Assembly (NCBI GenBank): GCA_000004985.1
Contig: GG739168.1
Direction: 5' to 3' (one strand)
Length of the DNA stretch: 5,100 nt
Source: Naegleria gruberi
Lineage: Eukaryota
In this document: positions 1-5,100 of the stretch, piece after piece
Numbering within the stretch: the stretch's first letter is position 1
Layout: every line of letters begins with the position of its first letter
The notes under the pieces: model-generated
What the model saw: the letters and a program-made list of their open reading frames with translations, nothing else
Database searches by the model: none
Told to the model about the DNA's origin: nothing
Made by a program: the position numbers and the translations under genes

Positions 1-1238
1 TATGTTGCAACCTTGCTTTGCTAGCTTCCCCAACTGGATTAGCACAAGGAGTAGATTCCAATTTGATTTATTTTGCTGATTCAAGTAATAATAGAATCAG
101 AGTAGTAACTGGTGCCTCAACTTTGACATCATTAATAATGACAAAAGCTGGAACAGGAGATCAATCAGCTTCTTCAGATGATTTACTGATAGATCCACTG
201 AAGGCCAAGTTCAATACTCCAAGATTAGTGTCTAGGTTAAGCAATGGAAATATTCTGATTGGAGACACTCTCAACTATCGAATTCAGATGATTTCGAATA
301 CTGAAAATGGCGAGAAATTACGAACCATAGTCAATATAGCAGACTCATATGGAAGTTCAGTAATTACAGACATGGTTGTCACCGAGCAAAATACAATTCT
401 CGTCTCCACTATGGATGCAATTTACAACCTGGTGCCCCTTTGTGATATGGGTTATCAACTTGTGAATAACAATACTGAATGCCTTCCTATTTGTTTTGGA
501 TCTCTTGGGCAATTTTCCTGTTCAGGCAGAGGCAAATGTGTAGAGCCAGATAATTGCTCATGCCTTCAGGGACTCTACACAGGAAGTCAATGTGAAATTC
601 CAATATGTTATGGAATTGCTGCAAATGAATCAAGCGTTTGTTCTTATATGAATGGTACTTGTGGAATCAATAATCAGTGTACATGCAAGGATGGATTTTA
701 TGGCAACATGTGTGAGAATCCAATTTGCTTCTCACAAATAGTTGGAGAATCATGCGGAGGTAGTCTCAGAGGAACTTGTATTCATAAGGATAGATGCTCA
801 TGCAATCAACATTTTACTGGAGAGCGTTGTGAATTAAGAATTTGTTCAGGAAAAAGTGAGAATGACACTGAAGTGTGTAATGGACATGGTAAATGTGTGG
901 AAAATGGAAGATGTACCTGTGATGCATTATATTCTGGTTTAGATTGTTCAGATATGAGTCAAATATATGCCTTAGGTATTAGTGCTTCTATTGTTCTATT
1001 GATATTGACTGTATTGGCTGTGGTTTCTATTATATTAGGATTAGTTGTTCATAGAAAGAATAGAAAAGAAAGAAAAATATTGGAAACTGAGCTTTCTCTT
1101 GATGAGAGGTTGCTATCAACTACTGAAGCATATGAATTGTCTATTTCTTCTGCTTCTAGTAATGTTCATTCAACTAATGATGATCCTTCCTCTTTTGTTA
1201 TTCCTCTCCATAAAATTGGAATGGATAAACCAATCAAG
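1..1238 (+). CDS. Exon 1 (5'-partial; reading frame runs open to the window edge, first complete codon at nt 3) of a receptor-like protein kinase gene. It encodes the extracellular NHL repeats, the tenascin-type EGF-like repeats, the TM helix and the juxtamembrane segment. It ends at the splice donor AAG|GTAAGT.
   Basis: About 412 stop-free in-frame codons. The position-18 'M' of the ORF track is really TTG Leu, and the frame stays open upstream to nt 3. Recognisable domain motifs are present (see sub-features). Perfect consensus donor at 1239. Splicing to 1286 continues the frame into the kinase Gly-loop. Confidence 0.85.
3..293 (+). other. NHL-repeat (six-bladed beta-propeller family) segment of the ectodomain. 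At least two repeats are in the window, and more blades probably lie upstream.
   Basis: The protein segments LASPTGLAQGVDSNLIYFADSSNNRIRVV and LIDPLKAKFNTPRLVSRLSNGNILIGDTLNYRIQMI match the NHL consensus (P-x-G-[IV]-A-x-D-x-x-G-x-[IL]-[YF]-[VI]-[AT]-D-x-x-N-[NH]-R-[IV]-[QR]-[VM]-[FIV]). Confidence 0.6.
441..947 (+). other. Cysteine-rich region: an N-terminal Cys cap followed by 4 tandem tenascin-type EGF-like repeats at about 495..608, 609..728, 729..845 and 846..947. The first three are separated by P/R-I-C junctions. Four N-glycosylation sequons (NNT, NES, NGT, NDT) are present.
   Basis: Repeating pattern C-x5-7-C-x5-C-x-C-x2-G-[FY]-x-G-x2-C-E-x-[PR]-I-C with 6 Cys per unit of 34-40 aa. 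Example: CSGRGKCVEPDNCSCLQGLYTGSQCEIPIC. Periodicity is about 114-120 nt. Confidence 0.75.
978..1049 (+). other. Single transmembrane helix (ISASIVLLILTVLAVVSIILGLVV) followed by the basic stop-transfer patch HRKNRKERK (1050..1076). This implies type-I topology with the ectodomain outside and the kinase cytosolic.
   Basis: A 24-residue uninterrupted hydrophobic stretch flanked on the C-terminal side by a Lys/Arg cluster (positive-inside rule). Glycosylation sequons and Cys-rich repeats lie only on the N-terminal side. Confidence 0.8.
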
Positions 1239-1285
1239 GTAAGTTTACTTTCGAATATAACAATGATTTAACAATTTTAATACAG
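1239..1285 (+). other. Spliceosomal intron, 47 nt, phase 0 (GTAAGT...TAATACAG).
   Basis: The donor GTAAGT at 1239..1244 directly follows AAG. The acceptor AG is at 1284..1285, preceded by a T/A-rich tract. The intron is AT-rich and contains the in-frame TAA (1269..1271) that ends the unspliced ORF. Its removal joins ...KPIK to RLGEGGIGSVF (GxGxxGxV) in frame, restoring kinase subdomain I, which neither ORF contains alone. Confidence 0.8.
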
Positions 1286-2191
1286 AGACTGGGAGAAGGT
1301 GGAATAGGAAGCGTATTCATGTCAAAATATAATGGAATGATCGTGGCAGTTAAAGTATTTGATTTAAATAACTTGAACATTTCGGAAGAAGATTTCAAAA
1401 ATGAGGCTATTCTATTAAGCAAACTTCGTCATCCTAATATTATCAATTTTTACGGAGTTTCTACATCACCAACGAAACGTTACATAATTATGGAATGTTT
1501 GGATCAGAGTATGGAGAAGGTGATTGCCAAATTAGAGTTTAAACAATTAACTCTCTCATTGGATCAAAAATTGAAAATGATTCTTAATATTGCTAATGGA
1601 ATTGAATATTTACACAGCTTGAAACCAAGAAAAATCATCCATCGTGATCTAAAACCACAAAATATTCTATTGGATTCGAATGGAAATTGTAAATTGTGTG
1701 ATTTTGGATTGAGCAAATCCATTTCACAAGCAACTGTTTCTGCACTTACTAATCAGTTGGGTACACATTTCTACATGAGTCCAGAAATGTTTGATATTAA
1801 TGCTGTTGATCCTACCTATGCTACTGCAGTTGATATTTACAGTTTCTCAATAATCATGTGGCAATTATTATTCGAAATCAAAGATCCCTACCTCTTTAAA
1901 TCGTCAGAATTATTCCACAAATTGAAAACGAAATCACTTGAACAAGTCTCATCCTATCAGCTTACCAAAATGATTTGTGAAAATAATTATAGACCTTCTA
2001 TTCCATTCCAATCTATCAACGAATGTACAGATTGGTGTACCGAATTTATGAAGTCAGAACTAGGAAATACTTCAACAATTTTCAAATTGGGCCAATTGAT
2101 TAAAGAGTGTTGGCAAGCAGATCCAAAACTCAGACCAAGTATTGAACAAGTTGTAGATCAATTACAATCACTAGAGAATGAGCTTGTATAA
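1286..2191 (+). CDS. Exon 2 (terminal) of the same gene. It encodes the Ser/Thr (TKL-like) protein kinase catalytic domain and a short C-terminal tail. Stop TAA at 2189..2191.
   Basis: In-frame continuation from exon 1 (1286 is 33 nt upstream of the ORF-track ATG at 1319, same frame). Motifs: GEGGIGSV (Gly loop), AVK (subdomain II Lys), E in helix C (FKNEAILL), HRDLKPQN (1640..1648 = HRD), DFG (1700..1708), GTHFYMSPE (activation segment/APE), DIYSFS (subdomain IX), CW..DP..RPS (subdomain XI). Confidence 0.85.
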   Translation, partial: RLGEGGIGSVFMSKYNGMIVAVKVFDLNNLNISEEDFKNEAILLSKLRHPNIINFYGVSTSPTKRYIIMECLDQSMEKVIAKLEFKQLTLSLDQKLKMILNIANGIEYLHSLKPRKIIHRDLKPQNILLDSNGNCKLCDFGLSKSISQATVSALTNQLGTHFYMSPEMFDINAVDPTYATAVDIYSFSIIMWQLLFEIKDPYLFKSSELFHKLKTKSLEQVSSYQLTKMICENNYRPSIPFQSINECTDWCTEFMKSELGNTSTIFKLGQLIKECWQADPKLRPSIEQVVDQLQSLENELV

Positions 2192-2465
2192 TATACTATG
2201 AAACGTGTTGGAAATTGTATCCACCTCTTTGGGTTTGGTTAGGATTCAGAGTTGATTTATTTGGGTTATTTAAGAGATTACTTTGTGAAGATTTATATCA
2301 TTGATTATATTTCTTATCATCTATTAATGATGTAAATTTGATGTTTTCATTTCTTATATTGATAGATATTTAAAGGTCAGGTCAGAACTAACTTTTGAAA
2401 TATGGACTTTGAGAAGTCAAATGTTTGGGACGTGAATCTACTCGTTAGATTGAACAGGTATTGCT

Positions 2466-2471
2466 AATAAA
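2466..2471 (+). promoter_or_regulatory. Candidate polyadenylation signal AATAAA for the kinase gene, 275 nt past the stop.
   Basis: This is the first AATAAA hexamer downstream of TAA 2189..2191. The hexamer is frequent by chance in AT-rich DNA, so the call is weak. Confidence 0.3.
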
Positions 2472-2718
2472 GAAACATTTCATTGATTTATTGATTATAA
2501 CGGTCAAATTGAGTTGAATGGAAGTGAATCTAATGTTGATTGATCGTGGATGGGTAGTTTCGCCACGAAGTGGTGCAACCACCAACCACTACCAACCTTT
2601 GTAGATTGAATCAGGTTGATTTGCATGCAATCTGAAATATGTAGCATGATTCAAGTGATTATTCACCAATTCAATGATCAATATTCAATAATCGGTTTGA
2701 TTTCAATCAATAGCTTAT

Positions 2719-2735
2719 AGCTTGATCATCAAGCT
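2719..2735. repeat. Perfect 8-1-8 inverted repeat AGCTTGAT-c-ATCAAGCT.
   Basis: Direct reading. The arms are exact reverse complements around a single central base. The upstream neighbour TAGCTTATAGCTTGA repeats TAGCTT. Confidence 0.5.
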
Positions 2736-3882
2736 TTGAATTAATATTCCAGTAATTAACGGCAGTCTATTTTTAAATTTAATCAAAGACCATATATAGT
2801 AGCTTGACTTTTATGATATGTACACTATCTAGATGTGTTCTATATTGAATAATCTATTTGAAAATGAGAAGAATTAACTCTTCTATTGAGTTTGGTATTG
2901 CAAGGTATTACGATTATAATAATCTACACAGAAATCACTCTTGAAATATAAACTGTACTACAATGTAAGAGAAACATAATGGTGGTTGAATTAATCAATA
3001 ACTCGTTGAAATGACTGAGATGGAATGTAAACTATGGTCTATTTGTTATGTAATGGTGACTAGACAGTGTCAATTTCATCAAATTATTTCAAACTGATTA
3101 CAATCAATAAAAAAACCACTCTATACACCAAATATACCATACAGAATGAGTTTCAATATTTAATATTGTGAACTGACTCTGTTGGATACCATCTCTATAA
3201 ATATAACAAGATGAAAAGTGTCAACATTCAATTTCACATGCATGTTACTTTGTAGAGTCATCATTATATCATCTAGATAGGTAATATTTCAAGTTTCAGT
3301 GGAATTGACTGTCTAGATATTGAGATATGTTTACTAAGGTTGATGAAGTGTCACCTTCACTGAATCCTGACATGAATATAACAATTGATCATATGATTCT
3401 TGTATAAGTATTTCATTATTCAATAACTGTGATATGATGGTAAAATTTAATTTTGAATTAAGATTCTTCCTAATTGATTTCCTTAGATGTTCCTTAGTTG
3501 ACTTGAAGATACAGAGCCATCAATATGAAACTGTTCCAGATTGTTATCCACATAAAGAGGAGTGTATTCATATTTTACACTAATATGATATTTTGCAAAA
3601 TGAATGGGATGGAGTGTGATCTTTGTGATGAAAGCTGACTTTTTGGAAGAATGATATTATTATCATACTGAATATAATTCTAACAGACTGTAAATGATAC
3701 CATATAATTAATAAAGTGATTTAATATATATGGTAAAGTTATATATTGATTGAACCTACTTTCATTGAGATAGAGAGTTCACTAGGATATAAATACTGTT
3801 GACATTGAACATGAACCGATTGGTTGAATGAAAGTATCATGAATTGTTTCTAAACTTGTTTATATATACTTAAATGATGTCT

Positions 3883-3908
3883 GGGGGTTGGGGTTGGGTT
3901 TGGGTTAG
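3883..3908 (+). repeat. Interstitial telomere-like G-rich tract GGGGGTTGGGGTTGGGTTTGGGTTAG (a mix of TTGGGG, TTTGGG and TTAG units). It has four G-runs and could form a G-quadruplex.
   Basis: Direct reading gives G5-TT-G4-TT-G3-TTT-G3-TTAG. It is the only G-run tract of its kind in the window and sits in otherwise 70%+ AT DNA. Confidence 0.6.
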
Positions 3909-3940
3909 ACGAAAACCCATCGACGACTAACGAACGGCCA
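3900..3940 (+). other. Foldback plus CpG-dense block: TGGGTT-agacgaa-AACCCA (6-bp stem) followed by atcgacgactaacgaacggcc and CCAAT.
   Basis: TGGGTT (3901..3906) and AACCCA (3914..3919) are exact reverse complements. There are 6 CpG in about 30 nt (3909..3937), whereas CpG is otherwise sparse across 2192..5100. Confidence 0.5.
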
Positions 3941-3984
3941 ATATTGAGTATCTGAATTTCATATATGTCATTCAAATATAAATA
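3936..3984 (+). promoter_or_regulatory. Candidate Pol II core-promoter module: CCAAT (3936..3940), then 36 nt of spacer, then TATAAATA (3977..3984). It lies immediately downstream of the GC/CpG-rich block and predicts a rightward TSS near about 4005..4015.
   Basis: Motif order and spacing are classical. No ORF of 60 aa or more follows, so if the module is functional the product would be a non-coding RNA or a gene with tiny exons. TATAAATA also occurs by chance elsewhere (3196, 3788, 4126). Confidence 0.2.
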
Positions 3985-4594
3985 AAAAGCTTATATTGTA
4001 ACGAAGCAGTCATATCTCAAAGTAGTTATAGAGATAATCAACTCTGAAAAAATAAAAGTTAGGTTTTCCCGGTATTACTCTATGAATATGGAGATCGCCG
4101 GTCTGGATTAAATATATGTAGTAGATATAAATATGAGTTGACTATATTCGCAAATAAATTTGAAAAATATCATTGCGTTCAAAAATAATAAGGCACTGCC
4201 TGAAATATTAAGGTTTTTACCCTAGTAGGTCTAAAATTTCAAAGTTGGGTTGAAATGTAAATTTTAATATATTGTAGATATATAGATGAATAGATGATAT
4301 TATGAATTAATCATGTTGAATCGGTGTATTTAATAAGTTACAACATGTTTAAAAATTAACTTTCTAACATTTATTGTACTATTATATGAATGTTATTACA
4401 ATCATCACTAATCTCATATATATGATGTACAATGATGATATTCACATTGTAGAAGTGTTGAAAGTATAATATATAATATCCTTAGTAAACTGTACTCATT
4501 CTACTTTAATTGACCAAGATATTGAGCCATACTATGGAAACACTATACCAATTTATTAAACTTGTTAATATTGTAATAAACATCAAATATAATC

Positions 4595-5068
4595 ATATAT
4601 AATTGAAATAATTATTATTGGATCCATATTCAGACTGTAGGAAGTCAACTTGTGTGAAAATGACAATATCGGTTATTGAAGGATGAATATCTTACATGAC
4701 TTAATTCCACTCATTGATACATGTCTAACTATCATGTTTTATGATATGTAATTGAAATAATTGAAATCTATCATATATATAGGTAGATAACCAATTAGGA
4801 TGAGAGTAGGGGAAGTTACGCTCACTATTTACCAGGTAAACACTTTCAATAGGGACCCATATATTTTATTTGATTATATCGTACATCTATGCATTTTATC
4901 GATAAATAATTGGTTTCATGATTGTATTTTCTATATTTCCAATTTGGGAAGTGTTGCAATGTCAATACTCAATTGAAATATTGCCATAATACCAATTATT
5001 GATTATATTTCATGAAACTGATATTACAGGCTCTAATTGATGTATATATGAATATATAATTGAAATAA
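4595..5068 (+). repeat. Cluster of a recurring AT-rich motif. The exact 17-mer ATATATAATTGAAATAA occurs at 4595..4611 and 5052..5068. TAATTGAAATAATTGAAAT (an internal 9-nt tandem duplication) is at 4749..4767. AATTGAAATA also occurs at 4971..4980.
   Basis: Four copies of AATTGAAATA within about 470 bp and none elsewhere in the window. Two of the copies share an exact 17-mer. Confidence 0.5.
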
Positions 5069-5100
5069 GTGATTTTAGACATTTCTTAATGACATGGATA

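What the first reader, a model, noticed from the sequence alone, without database searches (positions are those of the whole stretch)
3883..3940. Interstitial telomere-like G-quadruplex motif fused to a foldback and the window's only CpG cluster
GGGGGTTGGGGTTGGGTTTGGGTTAG mixes ciliate-type (TTGGGG/TTTGGG) and TTAGG(G)-type units and has four G-tracts that could form a G-quadruplex. It runs directly into an exact 6-bp foldback (TGGGTT/AACCCA) and a 30-nt block carrying 6 CpG in DNA otherwise depleted of CpG. Possible readings include a relic of telomere healing or chromosome fusion, the terminal structure of a mobile element, a replication or recombination hotspot, or a GC-box-like promoter element (see the next finding). 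A heterogeneous repeat argues against a recent perfect telomere and for an old or functionally constrained element.
Basis: seen in the sequence. Interest (0 to 1): 0.6.

Follow-up and report, generated by a model that had tools for sequence, protein, structure and literature searches.

The report
Short internal telomere-type repeat, amoeba genome
A 24-base stretch of telomere-type repeats sits inside gene-free DNA of a Naegleria-like amoeba, and it matches the telomere repeat proposed for that lineage, so it is most likely a small scar of past telomere-related DNA repair and not a new kind of element.

Summary
The motif is real. GGGGGTT-GGGGTT-GGGTTT-GGGTTA lies at 3883-3908 and is the window's only G-quadruplex-capable tract (G4Hunter 2.16). 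A run of 3 or more such units appeared in 0 of 5000 composition-matched simulations. The adjacent block has 5 CpG, not 6; this is still unusual (p about 0.003). The 6-bp foldback is at chance level as a hairpin, but its 3' arm is the only AACCC on the + strand, that is, one inverted telomere unit.

The upstream gene (NHL + EGF + transmembrane + kinase, standard code, one 47-nt intron) places the window in a heterolobosean related to Naegleria. TTTGGG is the published candidate telomere repeat for Naegleria gruberi, so the "ciliate-type" units are the host lineage's own type.

The motif lies in 2.9 kb of ORF-free, 28% GC DNA. I found no Rfam match, tRNA, significant fold, repeat partner or copy in the searchable collections.

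Best reading: a short interstitial telomeric sequence left by telomerase at a break, by an end fusion, or in a subtelomere. Present function is unproven. The source genome was not available, so copy number, chromosomal position and the host's own telomere remain untested. This is an ordinary member of a known kind and of low to moderate interest.

The parts
3883..3908 (+). Telomere-type G-strand run: G-GGGGTT-GGGGTT-GGGTTT-GGGTTA. It has four G-tracts and is the only G4-capable tract in the window.
   Evidence: TRF period 6, 3.5 copies; 0 of 5000 simulations gave >=3 units. G4Hunter 2.16. TTTGGG is the candidate N. gruberi telomere repeat (PMC3622300).
3901..3919 (.). Exact 6-bp inverted repeat TGGGTT / AACCCA with a 7-nt loop. 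The 3' arm (AAACCC, 3913-3918) equals one telomere unit in inverted orientation.
   Evidence: As a hairpin it is at chance level (25 observed against 19 expected; fold z not significant). However, AACCC at 3914 is the only one on the + strand of the window, giving about 0.006 by composition for one falling within 20 nt. That estimate is post hoc.
3907..3940 (.). GC-richer block (53% GC) with 5 CpG, ending in GGCCAAT.
   Evidence: >=5 CpG per 30 nt in 0.32% of simulations. The whole 3883-3940 block is 57% GC, against 27-28% in the 300-nt flanks.
2228..2243 (+). Second, degenerate telomere-like patch TTTGGGTTTGGTTAGG. It has the same orientation and starts 37 nt after the kinase stop codon.
   Evidence: Its connection to the main motif is inferred only.
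1..2191 (+). Context: the 3' part of a receptor-like kinase gene (NHL repeats, EGF-like repeats, transmembrane helix, protein kinase). It has a 47-nt GT..AG intron at 1239-1285 and a TAA stop at 2189-2191.
   Evidence: best named homologs are Naegleria gruberi and N. lovaniensis at 32-40% identity, and Acrasis kona; the metagenome relative L001 is 75% identical in nucleotides and has its intron at the same position.
2192..5100 (.). Context: 2.9 kb of AT-rich (28% GC) DNA with no ORF. The motif lies about 1.7 kb into it.
   Evidence: longest stop-to-stop frame is 64 codons; no Rfam family or tRNA; no tandem periodicity.

Best explanation
This is a short interstitial telomeric sequence (ITS). 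It consists of four units of the host lineage's own telomere-type repeat (TTGGGG/TTTGGG, ending in GGGTTA), embedded with about 34 nt of GC-richer, CpG-bearing DNA in an AT-rich, gene-free spacer of a Naegleria-related heterolobosean.

Shown: the tract exists and is far beyond chance. The host is a heterolobosean. The lineage's only proposed telomere repeat is TTTGGG. The tract is internal to the window and flanked by unique AT-rich DNA. The 58-nt block is a compositional island.

Inferred: the block was laid down in one repair event. There are three candidate routes.
- Telomerase added a few repeats to a broken end, which was then rejoined with filler DNA.
- Two eroded chromosome ends fused, leaving four units facing one inverted AAACCC unit.
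- The tract is an internal repeat of a subtelomere whose telomere lies to the right.

The recurring G4T2/G3T3 mix looks more like variable synthesis by telomerase, as in Paramecium, than like independent point mutations. That too is inference. Whatever it does now (G-quadruplex formation, binding of telomere-repeat proteins) would be incidental and has not been demonstrated.
For: - The sequence and its statistics.
- Host assignment from the neighbouring gene.
- TTTGGG is reported as the candidate telomeric repeat at N. gruberi scaffold ends: PMC3622300.
- The G-strand reads 5'->3' on the + strand. A second, degenerate patch (2228-2243) has the same orientation.
- The block is 57% GC against 27-28% in the flanks, as expected for inserted or filler DNA.
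- The only + strand AACCC of the window lies 7 nt after the run.
- The tract sits in 2.9 kb without ORFs. By contrast, intergenic gaps in a 23.6-kb N. lovaniensis locus (L007) are mostly 100-400 bp, and L001 and L002 are also densely packed with gene calls. This fits former or present chromosome-end DNA.
- Such runs are rare: none of >=2 units in 66 kb of heterolobosean DNA.
- Nothing points to a gene product: no Rfam family or tRNA, and no fold better than shuffles on either strand.
Against: - The host's own telomere repeat is unknown. The TTTGGG assignment is for another genus and is itself only a 'candidate' taken from scaffold ends.
- No orthologous empty site, genome copy count, chromosomal position or read support could be examined, because the source genome is in none of the searchable collections.
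- The three origin routes cannot be told apart.
- The CpG cluster could indicate selective constraint, which a neutral scar does not predict.
- Slippage of a chance GGGTT seed could in principle produce a similar tract.
Confidence: 0.6

Rival explanations
1. Chance or slippage-grown G/T microsatellite with no link to telomere biology. The resemblance to the lineage's telomere repeat would be coincidental.
For: The tract is only 24-26 nt and heterogeneous. TRF scores it low (35-37). No other copies were found.
Against: A run of >=3 units never arose in 5000 simulations. No comparable run occurs in 66 kb of related genomes. The unit matches the lineage's proposed telomere repeat. An inverted unit and a second same-orientation patch lie nearby.
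Confidence: 0.1
2. Functional cis-element. Under this reading it is a telo-box-like or G4 element, bound by a telomere-repeat (Myb-type) protein, that acts as a promoter, insulator or origin element for a nearby transcription unit. The CCAAT box at 3938 and TATAAATA at 3977 would form the core promoter.
For: The CpG cluster and GC island lie in CpG-depleted DNA. CCAAT and TATAAATA lie 40 nt apart, downstream of the tract.
Against: No ORF longer than 64 codons lies within 1.2 kb downstream or 1.7 kb upstream. There is no Rfam family. CCAAT occurs 23 times and TATAAATA 4 times in the window. Conservation could not be tested.
Confidence: 0.1
3. Telomerase RNA gene on the minus strand. 5'-CUAACCCAAACCCAACCCCAACCCCC-3' would be a long template encoding both repeat variants. 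The UGGGUU/AACCCA helix would be the template boundary element, and the CpG-bearing block would be the constrained 5' domain.
For: Internal telomere-complementary tracts are how telomerase RNA genes are usually found (own knowledge). A helix abuts the 5' side of the would-be template. Such tracts are rare in related DNA. The held literature describes no heterolobosean telomerase RNA.
Against: Four repeat units is far longer than the usual 1.5-2 unit template (own knowledge). There is no match to Rfam telomerase families at E <= 1. Minus-strand folds of 206 and 350 nt are no better than shuffles (z -0.2 and -1.1). The sequence 3' of the template is about 25% GC with no evident pseudoknot. A UUUU run lies just 5' of the template.
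Confidence: 0.03
4. Assembly artefact: a telomere-ended contig was wrongly joined to unrelated sequence at 3906/3907.
For: The G-strand orientation is what a right-hand chromosome end would show. Composition changes abruptly at 3907.
Against: Only 24 nt of repeat are present, far shorter than a real telomere and shorter than usual assembly overlaps. The DNA beyond the 34-nt block returns to the same 27-28% GC character as the left flank. This could not be tested with reads.
Confidence: 0.04
5. Terminus or target site of a mobile element, for example a telomere-repeat-primed retroelement or a foldback element.
For: Some retroelements carry or target short telomeric repeats (own knowledge). The flanking DNA is non-coding and could be a decayed element.
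Against: There is no inverted or direct partner of the block in the window. The flanks show no coding remnant and there is no target-site duplication. An exact 22-mer from the block found no copy in JGI metagenome or viral contigs.
Confidence: 0.05

Closest known systems
Short interstitial telomeric sequences (short ITSs) of vertebrates and other eukaryotes, ascribed to telomerase action during double-strand-break repair
   Same: A few tandem telomere-type hexamers at an internal, unique, non-coding site, in a single orientation, with no flanking repeat family.
   Different: The units are heterogeneous (G4T2, G3T3, G3T2A) and not perfect copies. They are fused to a 34-nt CpG-bearing block and an inverted unit. 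The host's telomere repeat is inferred from another genus. No empty orthologous site was available to show insertion.
Head-to-head telomere fusion relics (for example human 2q13)
   Same: G-strand units are followed closely by a C-strand unit (AAACCC), in gene-poor DNA on both sides.
   Different: There is only one inverted unit against four, separated by 7 nt, and no extended degenerate arrays. The significance is about 0.006, estimated post hoc.
Paramecium-type variable telomeres (a random mix of TTGGGG and TTTGGG)
   Same: The same two repeat variants are intermixed in one tract.
   Different: The host is not a ciliate. The flanking gene uses the standard code with a TAA stop and has no in-frame TAA or TAG in 713 codons. 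Its homologs are heterolobosean.
Plant telo-box / yeast Rap1-site promoter elements
   Same: A short telomere-repeat-like sequence outside telomeres that could bind a telomere-repeat protein.
   Different: Those elements are 1-1.5 units long and lie close to the start of defined genes. Here there are four units with no gene within 1.2-1.7 kb.

Membership tests
Short interstitial telomeric sequence | Tandem units identical to the host's telomere repeat | tested here: inconclusive
   The units are TTGGGG and TTTGGG. TTTGGG is the candidate telomere repeat of N. gruberi (PMC3622300). The host is a Naegleria relative, but its own chromosome ends were not available.
Short interstitial telomeric sequence | Internal position with unique flanking DNA on both sides | tested here: met
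   3882 nt lie to the left and 1194 nt to the right within the window. The flanks have no repeats. Distance to the chromosome end is unknown.
Short interstitial telomeric sequence | Arose by insertion: an empty orthologous site exists in relatives | not testable with these tools
   The only close relative (L001, 75% nucleotide identity) ends 190 nt after the stop codon. The metagenome scans found no orthologous spacer.
Head-to-head telomere fusion site | G-strand array abutting a C-strand array | tested here: inconclusive
   Four G-strand units are followed after 7 nt by a single AAACCC. This is the only AACCC on the + strand. One unit is too little to call an array.
Canonical G-quadruplex motif | Four tracts of >=3 G separated by loops of 1-7 nt | tested here: met
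   Regex match at 3883-3904 and G4Hunter 2.16. Actual folding in vivo or in vitro was not tested.
Telomerase RNA gene | Template of about 1.5-2 repeat units within a structured, conserved RNA (boundary helix, pseudoknot) | tested here: not met
   The run is 4 units long. No Rfam telomerase family matches at E <= 1. Minus-strand folds are not better than shuffles. Only a 6-bp helix lies next to the tract. Conservation is not testable.
Telo-box-type promoter element | Lies within the proximal promoter or 5' UTR of a gene | tested here: not met
   No ORF longer than 64 codons in 2192-5100 on either strand and no known RNA gene.
CpG island | A stretch of >=200 bp with high GC and CpG o/e > 0.6 | tested here: not met
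   The cluster spans 27 nt inside a 58-nt GC-rich block. The flanks return to 27-28% GC.
C/D box snoRNA | C box and D box brought together by a terminal stem that encloses both | tested here: not met
   AUGAUGU lies at 3874 and CUGA at 3952. The predicted stem (3866-3873 with 3944-3951) leaves the D box outside it. These box motifs are common in the window, and there is no Rfam match.
Mobile-element terminus | Multiple copies, or terminal repeats or a target-site duplication | tested here: inconclusive
   None in the window. There were 0 exact hits in metagenome and viral contigs. The host genome itself could not be searched.

The most novel reading that the evidence does not exclude
The minus strand of 3883-3940 is the template region of the first heterolobosean telomerase RNA. 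Under this reading an unusually long, roughly 24-nt template encodes both G4T2 and G3T3 repeat variants and is bounded by the UGGGUU/AACCCA helix. The CpG-bearing block would be its conserved 5' domain.
Probability: 0.03. Interest if true: 0.8.

Novelty: new member of a known kind. Interest (0 to 1): 0.25.

Why it matters
Telomere biology in Heterolobosea is almost uncharted. In the held literature there is only a 'candidate' TTTGGG repeat from N. gruberi scaffold ends (PMC3622300), and no telomerase RNA is described.

If the host's telomeres do prove to be a TTGGGG/TTTGGG mix, this tract would be a small fossil of telomerase output. It would show Paramecium-like variable synthesis in an unrelated lineage. 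It would also mark a past break, fusion or chromosome-end region useful for reconstructing karyotype change.

As it stands, it is a single short ITS with no demonstrated function, which is a common kind of feature in eukaryotic genomes.

Tried and rejected
1. Known RNA: an Rfam scan of the whole window at E <= 1 gave only a chance miRNA-like hit at 4951-5029. ARAGORN found no tRNA.
2. Hairpin or cruciform: DNA and RNA folds of 3860-3960 on both strands, and of 206 and 350 nt on the minus strand, were no better than shuffles. Six-bp hairpins are at background frequency.
3. Coding potential or decayed transposon in 2192-5100: the longest stop-to-stop frame is 64 codons.
4. Satellite or tandem structure of the spacer: autocorrelation and self-BLAST found only a 17-25 nt motif in three copies.
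5. Source contig: the 290-aa kinase ORF is not on record, and no identical protein is in the 5.8-billion-protein database.
6. Dispersed copies: the exact 22-mer GACGAAAACCCATCGACGACTA had 0 hits in JGI metagenome contigs and in viral contigs. An exact-match search would miss diverged copies.
7. Orthologous spacer: a protein-guided scan of metagenome contigs returned only kinases of 29-35% identity on unrelated ciliate-like mini-chromosomes.
8. N. gruberi locus for P0002: not on record.
9. Literature on Naegleria or Acrasis telomeres, subtelomeres and telomerase RNA: only PMC3622300 was informative.
10. C/D snoRNA reading: rejected on box and stem geometry.
11. The sigma-70 promoter and terminator scan is not applicable to a eukaryote and was at background.

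Full report
**Observation**

The window reads ...gatgtct GGGGGTT GGGGTT GGGTTT GGGTTA GACGAAAACCCATCGACGACTAACGAACGGCCA atattgag... at 3883-3940.
- The G-rich run (3883-3906, continuing to GGGTTA at 3908) has four G-tracts with loops of 2, 2 and 3 nt.
- It is the only canonical G4 motif on either strand and the only place where |G4Hunter| reaches 1.0 (maximum 2.16).
- Tandem Repeats Finder reports period 6, 3.5 copies.
- In 5000 first-order Markov simulations of the window, a run of three or more G3-5T2-3 units never arose. Two units arose in 0.36% and a G4 motif in 0.18%. The tract is therefore not chance composition.

- The CpG block has five CpG (3910, 3921, 3924, 3931, 3935), not six. It is still the window's only cluster: the next best is 3 per 30 nt at 2541-2566, and five or more per 30 nt arose in 0.32% of simulations.
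- The exact hairpin TGGGTT/AACCCA (3901-3906 and 3914-3919) is unremarkable as a hairpin. The window holds 25 exact 6-bp hairpins against about 19 expected, and folds of 3860-3960 as DNA or RNA on either strand do not beat shuffles.

One point about the hairpin does stand out. Its 3' arm contains the only AACCC on the + strand of the whole window. That is one telomere unit in inverted orientation, 7 nt after the run. By composition, the chance of one falling within 20 nt is about 0.006, but this estimate was made after seeing the data.

**Whose DNA this is**

Positions 1-2191 encode the C-terminal 713 residues of a receptor-like protein with NHL repeats, EGF-like repeats, a transmembrane helix and a protein kinase domain. 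The gene has one 47-nt GT..AG intron (1239-1285, phase 0) and a TAA stop.

The reading frame has no in-frame TAA or TAG, so the host does not use the ciliate code. The best named homologs are Naegleria gruberi and N. lovaniensis proteins of the same architecture (32-40% identity), followed by Acrasis kona proteins. The best hit overall (57% identity) is on a 5.2-kb contig of an ENA metagenome. That contig is 75% identical in nucleotides over 1.47 kb and has its intron at the same position.

The window therefore comes from a heterolobosean that is not itself in the protein collection.

**Why that matters**

A survey of eukaryotic telomeres reported TTTGGG as the candidate telomeric repeat at scaffold ends of N. 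gruberi (PMC3622300). I found no other source on heterolobosean telomeres in the held literature.

The 'ciliate-type' units are therefore the type proposed for the host's own lineage. The tract is best described as an interstitial telomeric sequence. Comparable runs are rare in related DNA: none of two or more units in 66 kb from the metagenome relative, N. lovaniensis and A. kona.

**Surroundings**

After the stop codon, the remaining 2.9 kb of the window is 28% GC.
- The longest stop-to-stop reading frame is 64 codons.
- There is no Rfam family at E <= 1 apart from a chance miRNA-like hit, and no tRNA.
- There is no tandem periodicity.

By contrast, a 23.6-kb N. lovaniensis locus has genes separated mostly by 100-400 bp. 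L001 and L002 are also densely packed with gene calls. The tract therefore sits in unusually empty DNA for this kind of genome.

The 58-nt block 3883-3940 is a compositional island: 57% GC against 27-28% in the 300 nt on either side. A second, degenerate telomere-like patch (TTTGGGTTTGGTTAGG, 2228-2243) lies in the same orientation 37 nt after the stop codon.

CpG depletion (o/e 0.43 overall, 0.37 in the coding part) matches what has been reported for Naegleria despite very low 5mC (PMC12695648). A short CpG cluster here therefore need not mean a methylation-free island.

**Mechanism**

The best-supported reading is a short ITS laid down in a single telomere-related repair event, together with the adjoining GC-richer DNA. 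Three routes fit the data and I cannot separate them.
- Telomerase adds a few repeats to an internal break, which is then rejoined with filler DNA. This predicts a single copy and an empty site in relatives.
- Two eroded chromosome ends fuse. This would explain four units facing one inverted unit, and gene-free DNA on both sides.
- The tract is an internal repeat of a subtelomere whose telomere lies to the right. This would explain the shared orientation of the two patches and the empty DNA.

The same T-to-G difference recurs in successive units. That looks more like variable synthesis by telomerase, as known for Paramecium (own knowledge), than like independent mutation. This is inference.

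G-quadruplex formation is plausible from sequence alone. It is untested, as is any binding by telomere-repeat proteins.

**Rivals**
- **Pure slippage microsatellite.** Possible but poorly supported, given the match to the lineage's repeat, the rarity of such runs and the inverted unit.
- **Promoter or telo-box reading.** It has no gene to serve within 1.2-1.7 kb. It rests on CCAAT (23 occurrences in the window) and TATAAATA (4 occurrences), which are non-specific here.
- **Mobile-element terminus.** No repeat partner, coding remnant or target duplication is present. An exact 22-mer from the block has no match in JGI metagenome or viral contigs. That search would miss diverged copies, and the host genome could not be searched.
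- **Assembly join.** Unlikely with only 24 nt of repeat and matching composition on both outer flanks, but untested with reads.
- **Telomerase RNA gene on the minus strand.** This is the most novel reading. In its favour, internal template-like tracts are rare, and a helix abuts the 5' side of the would-be template. Against it: the tract is four units long where 1.5-2 is usual, no Rfam telomerase family matches, the minus strand shows no excess structure (z -0.2 and -1.1), the downstream sequence is about 25% GC, and a UUUU run lies just 5' of the template. I put this reading at about 3%.
- **C/D snoRNA reading.** Rejected because the predicted terminal stem leaves the D box outside it.

**Verdict**

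It is an ordinary short interstitial telomere-type repeat, made more interpretable by recognising that the host is a heterolobosean whose lineage uses this repeat type.

It is a new member of a known kind and of low to moderate interest. Access to the source genome (scaffold ends, copy number, spanning reads, orthologous spacers) would settle the open points quickly.

Noticed in passing
L003-L006 (whole loci, 1.8-2.3 kb): The distant kinase relatives from the JGI metagenome scan lie on gene-sized contigs with (CCCCAAT)n / (GGGGATT)n-type repeats at one or both ends. These look like ciliate-type macronuclear mini-chromosomes with a 7-nt telomere unit. They are unrelated to the window's host.
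   Followed up: no
window 4595-4615, 4744-4764, 5052-5072 (partial copy near 4972): A 17-25 nt motif, ATATATAATTGAAATAA, recurs three times in the same orientation at spacings of 149 and 308 nt. No wider tandem periodicity was detectable.
   Followed up: partly
window 2228-2243: A degenerate telomere-like patch, TTTGGGTTTGGTTAGG, starts 37 nt after the kinase stop codon, in the same orientation as the main tract. TTTGGGTTA recurs at 2260.
   Followed up: partly
window 2540-2600: A small GC-richer patch (about 38% GC over 2401-2700) holds the window's second-densest CpG group (3 in 30 nt) and a C/A-rich tract, CAACCACCAACCACTACCAACC (2576-2598).
   Followed up: no
window 2192-5100 versus L007: The 2.9 kb without any ORF contrasts with the mostly 100-400 bp intergenic spacing in a 23.6-kb N. 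lovaniensis locus. The region may be subtelomeric, a decayed element or a non-coding transcription unit.
   Followed up: partly
window 3949-3978: An imperfect 30-nt palindrome (TATCTGAATTTCATATATGTCATTCAAATA, 84% complementary) lies immediately right of the CpG block. In addition, ATACTTAA (3866-3873) and TTGAGTAT (3944-3951) form a 7/8 inverted pair bracketing the GC-rich block.
   Followed up: no
window 1239-1285 and L001 4038-4106: The single short intron, just before the kinase glycine loop (K|RLGEGG), is at the same position in the metagenome relative. Its length differs (47 against about 69 nt).
   Followed up: partly
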